Source: Bispira polyomma (lineage: Eukaryota). From it: a stretch of DNA of 64,000 nucleotides. Location of the stretch: the NCBI GenBank assembly GCA_965649765.1, contig OZ287757.1, forward strand, positions 49,290,001-49,354,000, read 5' to 3'. The stretch's first letter is position 1. Every line of letters starts with the position of its first letter. Shown piece by piece: positions 60,958-61,070 of the stretch. Below the pieces are notes generated by a model. The model was not told where the DNA came from and did not search any database. It worked only from the letters and a program-made list of their open reading frames with translations. Position numbers and translations under genes: made by a program.

Positions 60958-61070
60958 TCACCTTTTCTTGCCACACGTACAGCTGCAATCAGTAATTGCC
61001 CATGACCTGTCACACCAGCCATATTTCTTCCAGCTTGCACATGTGGTTGGGTGCACAACATTAACACATT
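60958..61070 (-). CDS. Terminal exon encoding an ShKT/BgK-like six-Cys peptide with a C-terminal GKKR
   Basis: Acceptor TTTGTTTGGTTTCAG, then xCVNVVHPTTCASWKKYGWCDRSWAITDCSCTCGKKR*. Minus-strand AATAAA at 60797-60802. Confidence 0.7.

What the first reader, a model, noticed from the sequence alone, without database searches (positions are those of the whole stretch)
60958..61070. Hidden ShKT/BgK-like peptide with a relocated sixth cysteine and an amidation signal
Seen: a clean acceptor followed by CVNVVHPTTCASWKKYGWCDRSWAITDCSCTCGKKR*, with a polyA signal ~155 nt downstream. It is absent from the ORF track. Known: BgK/ShK toxins have C-x8-C-xn-C-xn-C-x3-C-x2-C spacing with CxxW and CxxTC motifs, and G-K/R-R is a convertase plus PAM amidation signal. 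Here the spacing is C-x8-C-x8-C-x8-C-x-C-x-C. The terminal Cys is replaced by GKKR and a new Cys sits inside CxxTC (CSCTC), keeping six cysteines. A Lys-Tyr pair is present, though not at the ShK dyad position. Inference: a secreted, C-terminally amidated toxin or defence peptide with a rewired ShKT disulfide frame.
Basis: partly seen in the sequence, partly recalled or inferred. Interest (0 to 1): 0.72.

Follow-up and report, generated by a model that had tools for sequence, protein, structure and literature searches.

The report
Rewired ShK-like tail of CAP protein
The "hidden toxin peptide" is the last exon of a predicted seven-exon gene for a likely secreted CAP-family protein, and it encodes a six-cysteine tail, shared by seven related genes in this animal, that is predicted to fold like the sea-anemone ShK domain but with an unusual Cys-x-Cys-x-Cys ending.

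Summary
The sequence is as described (minus strand, AG acceptor, six Cys, G-K-K-R-stop, AATAAA 156 nt on), but the evidence does not favour a free peptide. Six further exons lie 4.7-18 kb upstream, beyond the window; all junctions are GT-AG, phases chain, and the 252-codon frame reads signal peptide, CAP/SCP domain (103 bits; His-Glu-Glu-His motifs), then this tail, with no dibasic site between them. Seven open paralogs on one chromosome share the intron phases and only the six cysteines (spacing 8, 7-8, 6-8, 1, 1); 1 of 7 ends in Gly-basic, and the Lys-Tyr pair is not conserved. Two nearby copies are broken fragments. The tail misses Pfam ShK (0 of 7), but its profile's best PDB hit, its best database hit and both fold hits are ShKT, all weak. 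Its spacing matches PLAC domains except for one cysteine shifted by one residue, and a PLAC model also matches only ShKT folds, a precedent for a relocated sixth cysteine. The pairing itself is unresolved. CAP-ShKT proteins are known in molluscs; this is a lineage-expanded variant with a GAPR-1-like CAP domain and a new cysteine frame.

The parts
60958..61070 (-). Last exon (7 of 7): six-cysteine ShKT/PLAC-like tail, spacing 8,8,8,1,1, ending G-K-K-R-stop; phase-1 acceptor
   Evidence: paralogs
60797..60802 (-). AATAAA, candidate polyadenylation signal 156 nt after the stop
   Evidence: use not tested
61071..64000 (-). Part of the last intron (phase 1, 4.66 kb). The six other exons lie beyond the window end, on the minus strand of G000:C10: exon 6 49355892-49355730 (C-terminal CAP strands), exon 5 49360296-49360182 (Glu and GHFTQ His motifs), exon 4 49361575-49361433 (His and GENL Glu motifs), exon 3 49362413-49362280 (first CAP helix), predicted 24-nt micro-exon 49363625-49363602, predicted signal-peptide exon 49369013-49368947. 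Window position = genome position minus 49290000.
   Evidence: exons 1 and 2 come from a hydropathy and donor scan (exon 1 is one of 4 candidate starts in 18.5 kb, chosen for its canonical donor and phase; no signal-peptide predictor was run)

Best explanation
The exon encodes the C-terminal six-cysteine domain of a predicted 252-residue, likely secreted CAP/SCP protein, and this tail likely stays attached and folds as an ShKT-type two-helix module that acts as a surface-docking arm, as the ShKT-like domain of CRISPs does, not as a free toxin. Shown by sequence: open frames, GT-AG junctions, shared intron phases and six invariant cysteines in seven paralogs. Inferred: splicing as modelled; entry to the secretory pathway through exon 1; a CAP domain that binds a divalent cation through its His-Glu-Glu-His motifs and lipid or sterol (family knowledge); a tail with three disulfides. 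Most likely wiring (about 55%): Cys10-Cys28, Cys19-Cys32 and Cys1-Cys30, the PLAC-like relocation moved one residue on; the alternative is a shortened tail in the canonical order. The seven copies differ widely between the cysteines, which suggests different surface partners (mucosal, reproductive or defensive); ion-channel modulation is possible but untested. G-K-K-R may be trimmed and amidated in this one paralog, but is not a family trait.
For: Gene model with 6 of 6 GT-AG introns, chained phases, 0 internal stops. Model scores 102.8 bits against a profile of 38 CAP domains cut from the 35 proteins. 7 of 7 paralogs open across the five exons checked, with the same phases and the four motifs; only the six Cys are invariant in the tail. 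No dibasic site between residue 188 and the tail in gene A; none in the 7 linkers. Tail profile: best of 19 PDB rows is the ShKT peptide OspTx2a, E 0.045; best of 3 hits in 1.84 billion proteins is a triple Pfam-ShK protein, E 6e-6. AlphaFold model has two helices, 7-16 and 22-28, pLDDT 68; 2 of 2 VIA hits are ShKT (OspTx2a Z 2.9, rmsd 2.5, 32 aligned; Nak1 Z 2.2, rmsd 2.9, 32 aligned; Nak1 as ShKT is recalled); 3 of 5 weak Foldseek rows are ShKT or CRISP. Own-genome ShKT profile scores this tail 15.8 bits, reached by 5-6 of 500 Cys-fixed shuffles. CAP-ShKT proteins are common and present in molluscs (PMC6409789, passages and Discussion part 1).
Against: 0 of 7 tails reach any Pfam ShK, Crisp or PLAC hit at E 10. 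Profile-profile probabilities are low: 4.9% to own-genome ShKT, 1.5% to PLAC. Six of 7 tails are not distinguished from Cys-fixed shuffles by the ShKT profile (26 to 436 of 500 reach their score). Fold Z-scores are under 3. The Atlas lead for paralog E is scorpion short toxins (0.85, weak); for this tail it is ShK on 11% of a cluster's members, with recognition just under the threshold. SA8 peptides show that ShK-like spacing can hide another connectivity (PMC10210398, passages). Against the relocation wiring: the fold alignment ends with model residue 33 on chain residue 36, which fits a shortened tail, and broken copies B and C both lost Cys1 and Cys32; Cys30 is kept. Exons 1 and 2 rest on a simple scan.
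Confidence: 0.8

Rival explanations
1. Same gene and ShKT fold, but the tail is simply shortened: canonical order Cys1-Cys32, Cys10-Cys28, Cys19-Cys30, no relocated cysteine.
For: VIA alignment runs model 2..33 on chain 3..36 of OspTx2a, putting the end of the model at the ShKT sixth Cys. Broken copies B and C lost Cys1 and Cys32 together; joint loss of Cys1 and Cys6 is reported for some snail ShKT domains (PMC6409789 passage).
Against: Sequence alignments place Cys32 on the ShKT fifth Cys without gaps in the tail, with Thr31 on the conserved Ser/Thr. The last block of the model has pLDDT 51. B and C are pseudogene fragments, so a paired loss can be chance (1 in 5). The PLAC model keeps the five-residue tail in register with ShKT Cys4-Cys5.
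Confidence: 0.3
2. One reading: the exon yields a free, C-terminally amidated toxin or defence peptide, either cut from the CAP protein or made by splicing exon 1 straight to exon 7.
For: G-K-K-R-stop fits carboxypeptidase trimming and PAM amidation (recalled pathway knowledge). The exon-1 donor is frame-compatible with the last exon (junction codon GAA). The peptide is basic and carries a Lys-Tyr pair.
Against: No dibasic site in the linker. Gly-basic end in 1 of 7 open paralogs; Lys-Tyr in 2 of 7 at most (A, and H at another place) and never between Cys3 and Cys4, where OspTx2a has it. Every copy of the tail found follows a CAP exon. Joining the micro-exon to exon 7 gives a stop. Single-ShKT secreted peptides are reported as rare in molluscs (PMC6409789 Discussion).
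Confidence: 0.07
3. The tail is a different small disulfide fold whose spacing only resembles ShKT.
For: No Pfam hit; low profile-profile probabilities; scorpion-toxin lead for paralog E; SA8 precedent.
Against: Sequence-profile, database and fold searches all rank ShKT first, though they share the same seven sequences and are not independent; CAP followed by ShKT is a common architecture, and several canonical ShKT exons of this genome also appear to open in phase 1 (read by eye).
Confidence: 0.12
4. Chance open frame or dead exon.
For: The two closest copies (B, C) are broken.
Against: Intact seven-exon model, six more open paralogs, excess of synonymous change.
Confidence: 0.01

Closest known systems
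Molluscan CAP-ShKT proteins (CreCAP-ShK types I and II of Cumia reticulata; Mr30, Tex31)
   Same: Signal peptide, CAP domain, C-terminal six-Cys ShKT-like module (PMC6409789, passages and Discussion part 1). This genome also has a Cys-rich CAP gene with a Pfam-ShK exon on C4.
   Different: One tail only, joined by a short linker; tail ends Cys-x-Cys-x-Cys and misses Pfam ShK; the CAP domain has only 2 Cys in gene A. The paper's alignments were not seen (supplement held no text), so its unrecognised Cys arrays could include this frame.
Vertebrate CRISPs (CAP, hinge, ICR domain; natrin, Tpx-1/CRISP2)
   Same: CAP domain with a terminal ShKT-fold module; natrin is the top, non-significant Foldseek row (E 5.3).
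   Different: No Cys-rich hinge; 8-9 Cys over the five exons checked against the 16 of CRISPs (recalled).
PLAC domain (PF08686)
   Same: 3 of 8 own-genome PLAC domains have spacing 8,8,8 and all have a five-residue tail from Cys4 to Cys6, as here; a PLAC model matches only ShKT/CRISP folds, 9 of 9 rows (for Nak1, Acan1, aurelin and pseudechetoxin the family label is recalled).
   Different: PLAC tail is Cys-Cys-x-x-Cys, here Cys-x-Cys-x-Cys; this tail scores 2.7 bits on the PLAC profile and has the ShKT-type Trp.
ShK / BgK / OspTx2a sea-anemone peptides (PF01549)
   Same: First four Cys spaced as in OspTx2a; Cys-x-x-Trp and Gly-x-Cys motifs; two predicted helices.
   Different: Not a free peptide; tail three residues shorter; no Lys-Tyr between Cys3 and Cys4.
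GAPR-1/GLIPR2-type CAP proteins
   Same: Cys-poor CAP domain with Ala-Arg-Tyr in place of Cys-Asn-Tyr (GAPR-1 motif recalled); the only database hits of the exon-6 profile are tandem Cys-poor CAP proteins.
   Different: GAPR-1 is a Golgi-anchored myristoylated protein (PMC13690689, abstract start); this family has predicted signal peptides and a disulfide tail.

Membership tests
CAP superfamily (PF00188) | Significant match to a CAP profile across the domain | tested here: met
   102.8 bits over residues 48-211 against a profile of 38 CAP domains; single exons alone are under Pfam's cut-off
CAP superfamily (PF00188) | His-Glu-Glu-His tetrad of the four CAP motifs (PMC4921858, passages) | tested here: met
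   all four motifs in 7 of 7 paralogs
CAP superfamily (PF00188) | Alpha-beta-alpha sandwich fold; sterol, lipid or metal binding | not testable with these tools
   the spliced protein cannot be handed to the folding tool; binding needs an assay
ShKT domain (PF01549) | Pfam ShK score over the cut-off | tested here: not met
   0 of 7 tails listed at E 10, while the same family finds 61 matches elsewhere in this genome
ShKT domain (PF01549) | Tail spacing Cys-x3-Cys-x2-Cys | tested here: not met
   7 of 7 have Cys-x-Cys-x-Cys
ShKT domain (PF01549) | Two-helix ShKT fold | tested here: inconclusive
   two helices predicted; 2 of 2 fold hits are ShKT but Z is 2.9 (rmsd 2.5, 32 aligned) and 2.2 (rmsd 2.9, 32 aligned)
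ShKT domain (PF01549) | Disulfides 1-6, 2-4, 3-5 (PMC6409789, PMC10210398 passages) | not testable with these tools
   model coordinates and bonds are not returned; indirect hints conflict
ShK-type potassium-channel toxins | Lys-Tyr dyad between Cys3 and Cys4 | tested here: not met
   absent there in 7 of 7; the pair of gene A lies between Cys2 and Cys3 and is not shared at that place
ShK-type potassium-channel toxins | Short precursor with a basic cleavage site ahead of the mature peptide | tested here: not met
   a whole CAP domain precedes the tail; no dibasic site in the linker
PLAC domain (PF08686) | Cys-Cys-x-x-Cys tail and Pfam PLAC score | tested here: not met
   fifth Cys shifted by one; no Pfam hit; 2.7 bits on the own-genome profile
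CRISP (CAP + hinge + ICR) | Cys-rich hinge between CAP and ICR | tested here: not met
   exon 6 leads straight into the tail; Cys at 49, 172 and the six of the tail only
Amidated secretory peptides | Gly followed by basic residues at the C-terminus, processed in vivo | tested here: inconclusive
   signal present in gene A only, 1 of 7; processing not testable

The most novel reading that the evidence does not exclude
ShKT, PLAC and this Cys-x-Cys-x-Cys tail are three wirings of one fold in which the cysteine that staples the N-terminus slides along the tail (about 50% for this part alone), and gene A in addition releases its tail as a free amidated, channel-active peptide by splicing the signal exon straight to the last exon.
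Probability: 0.05. Interest if true: 0.68.

Novelty: new variant of a known kind. Interest (0 to 1): 0.38.

Why it matters
It corrects a likely false "free toxin" call, and it adds a six-cysteine frame that Pfam ShK, Crisp and PLAC all miss, held constant in a seven-gene family. If the predicted wiring is right, it is a natural compact version of a drug-relevant scaffold and links the PLAC domain, for which no solved relative was found, to the ShKT fold; both can be tested with one 33-residue peptide each. No paper holding both "CxCxC" and "ShK" was found, and one search for "PLAC domain" with "ShK" listed 1 paper on another subject (listing only); the library lacks most subscription journals.

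Tried and rejected
Pfam on the peptide: only SWIM at E 1.8. phmmer of the single peptide against PDB sequences: 0 hits. No RNA holder listed; the three runs laid behave as DNA contigs and showed no joint at the acceptor among the rows printed; this says nothing on expression. Second tblastn hit in the window at 48727-48668 (E 0.045): rejected, it lacks the first two Cys (a stop lies just before it) and lies antisense to LINE reverse-transcriptase-like sequence (my reading of the opposite strand). Genome hits L005 and L006: chance. Homolog searches with exon 6 among longer proteins: 0 of 1 candidate for the single exon, 2 of 1091 for the profile, both tandem CAP proteins without the tail; so no ortholog outside this genome was found, which is weak evidence. 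Of 3 database hits for the tail profile, 1 is Pfam ShK, 1 has ShKT/PLAC-looking repeats without a fitting Pfam hit, 1 looks spurious; none ends Cys-x-Cys-x-Cys. PLAC profile against PDB sequences: 0 hits. Foldseek gave no match at E 0.001 for either model. A first model of paralog D had an exon set one base off and showed 2 stops, and paralog G failed through a misplaced anchor; both were corrected. Earlier findings: none. Paper searches gave nothing usable (listings only). The supplement of PMC6409789 held no text.

Full report
Observation. The window is G000:C10:49290001-49354000 of a 1.04-Gb animal genome. The cysteine spacing is 8,8,8,1,1. A different, intronless CAP gene of this genome has its best named homologs in Lottia, Saccostrea, Chilo and Lingula, so the animal is likely a lophotrochozoan, perhaps a mollusc; this is a rough inference.

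The gene lies mostly outside the window. A genome search with the peptide gave three further copies on C10 and two chance hits. Comparing their upstream DNA revealed an exon 4.7 kb beyond the acceptor that reads as the C-terminal strands of a CAP/SCP domain and ends in phase 1. Cross-comparison of paralogs gave three more CAP exons, and a scan gave a 24-nt micro-exon and a hydrophobic first exon. The seven exons (G000:C10, minus strand: 49369013-49368947, 49363625-49363602, 49362413-49362280, 49361575-49361433, 49360296-49360182, 49355892-49355730, 49351070-49350958) have 6 of 6 GT-AG introns, chained phases, 252 codons and no internal stop. Residues 48-211 score about 102 bits against a profile of 38 CAP domains; the His-Glu-Glu-His motifs that form the cation-binding tetrad (PMC4921858, passages) are present. 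Splicing is inferred from the genome; exons 1 and 2 are the least certain.

A family of seven. Searches with exons 5, 6 and a paralog's last exon define seven genes on C10: A (this one), D (30 kb away), E and F (38.2 Mb), G, H and I (12.4-12.5 Mb). All 7 are open over the five exons checked, with the same intron phases and the four motifs. All 7 end in a phase-1 exon with six cysteines closing in Cys-x-Cys-x-Cys; nothing else in the tail is invariant. Synonymous change per site exceeds replacement change in the last exon in 7 of 8 pairs computed, the exception being the two broken copies against each other. These copies, B (49.16 Mb) and C (49.25 Mb), have deletions of 11 and 73 bases in exon 6, show no convincing match to the three upstream CAP exons in the 120 kb fetched and have lost cysteines. 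Counts are lower bounds, as the tool scores only its best candidates.

Not a free peptide, on present evidence. No pair of basic residues lies between residue 188 and the tail in gene A, nor in the linkers of the others. Gly followed by basic residues ends 1 of 7 open genes; the Lys-Tyr pair of A is not kept at its place in the other six and is not in the Cys3-Cys4 loop. At a C-terminus, trimming by a carboxypeptidase and amidation need no convertase (recalled), so gene A's product may be amidated while staying whole. One loophole remains: the exon-1 donor is in frame with the last exon, so a short isoform is possible; nothing here shows it.

What the tail is. Pfam finds nothing relevant in 7 of 7 tails, although Pfam ShK finds 61 matches among 80 candidates elsewhere in the genome. 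Weak signals point to ShKT: the best of 19 PDB rows for the tail profile is OspTx2a (E 0.045); the best of 3 hits among 1.84 billion proteins carries three Pfam ShK domains; the model has two helices (pLDDT 68) and its only two VIA hits are OspTx2a and Nak1 (Z 2.9, rmsd 2.5, 32 aligned; Z 2.2, rmsd 2.9, 32 aligned; Nak1 as ShKT is recalled). A profile of the best 10 of the 61 own-genome ShKT matches scores tail A at 15.8 bits, reached by 5-6 of 500 Cys-fixed shuffles, but does not single out the other six tails. Profile-profile probability is 4.9%. The Atlas gives a weak ShK lead for A and a weak scorpion-toxin lead for E. These tests share the same sequences and are not independent.

The PLAC link. 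Eight of the 10 PLAC matches in this genome were aligned (two partial matches beside one locus were left out). Their spacing is 6-8,8,8,0,2 (two lack the first Cys in the stretch taken); three have 8,8,8,0,2, which is tail A with the fifth cysteine one residue earlier. A model of one PLAC domain (pLDDT 92.5) matches 9 chains at Z 2 or more, all ShKT or CRISP domains (four labels recalled); the best aligns 31 residues without a gap (Z 3.8, rmsd 1.5), which places the last PLAC cysteine on the fifth of ShKT. For our tail, sequence alignments give the same register, but the fold alignment ends two residues further on and copies B and C lost Cys1 with Cys32. I put relocation at about 55% and a shortened tail at 30%. 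Residues between the cysteines do not favour PLAC for tail A (2.7 bits; 1.5%). SA8 peptides warn that spacing does not fix connectivity (PMC10210398, passages).

How it likely works. Shown: gene anatomy and conservation. Inferred: a secreted two-part protein whose CAP domain binds a cation and lipid or membrane, and whose disulfide-locked tail docks on a surface partner, as proposed for CAP-ShKT and CRISP proteins (PMC6409789, passages and first part of the Discussion; that paper notes that no molluscan CAP-ShKT has been functionally characterised and that oyster type II genes are mantle-specific). Nothing here shows venom use or channel block.

Verdict. Real exon, different identity: the tail of a lineage-expanded CAP protein family. 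The architecture is known; the Cys-x-Cys-x-Cys frame on a GAPR-1-like CAP domain was not found in the databases or papers searched, with the caveat that the supplement of PMC6409789 could not be read and the paper describes unrecognised cysteine arrays. New variant of a known kind; interest 0.38.

Noticed in passing
G000:C2:105668415-105668507 (L067:1501-1593) and seven other PLAC matches: A PLAC-domain model (pLDDT 92.5) matches only ShKT and CRISP ICR structures, 9 of 9 rows, best Z 3.8, rmsd 1.5, 31 aligned; no solved PLAC relative was found by sequence. PLAC may be an ShKT-fold domain with one cysteine moved.
   Followed up: partly
G000:C10:44061581-44069535 (L042, L043), minus strand: A more distant CAP gene with similar exon blocks; a candidate phase-1 exon 4 kb downstream ends Cys-Cys-x-x-Cys, a PLAC-type tail with five Cys; no Pfam hit. 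Possible intermediate; its link to the gene is unproven.
   Followed up: partly
G000:C10:49159998-49162917 and 49252616-49255440 (L015, L024): Two broken partial copies (B, C) in which only exons 6 and 7 were found; both lost Cys1 and Cys32.
   Followed up: yes
window 1768-31123: The first half of the window is a segmental duplicate, mostly 90-98% identical, of G000:C10 about 49.21-49.25 Mb.
   Followed up: partly
window 19830-23850, plus strand: Exons of a gene with a signal-like stretch, a Thr/Pro-rich stretch and a MAM domain (PF00629, E 3.6e-6); duplicated with the segment above.
   Followed up: partly
window 35622-36056, plus strand: Exon with a glucose/sorbosone dehydrogenase-type match (PF07995, E 3e-4, under the cut-off), recalled as HHIP-like.
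   Followed up: partly
window 137-760, 34769-35332, 46206-46808, 56142-56459: Transposon remnants: LTR-type RNase H, two DDE_Tnp_4 pieces and a LINE reverse transcriptase.
   Followed up: partly
G000:C4:57672022-57679677 (L055): A Cys-rich CAP gene with EGF-like-looking exons and a Pfam-ShK exon, the conventional CAP-ShKT type, in the same genome.
   Followed up: partly
gene A residues 49 and 172 (exons 3 and 6, beyond the window): The only two CAP-domain cysteines of gene A; both positions hold Cys in the paralogs inspected, while the usual partner in Cys-Asn-Tyr is replaced. A family-specific helix-to-strand disulfide is possible.
   Followed up: no
G000:C10:38169537-38176095 and 12432331-12437386: Paralogs E and I are almost identical in protein yet lie 26 Mb apart on opposite strands; their last exons differ at 4 synonymous and 0 replacement sites.
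   Followed up: partly
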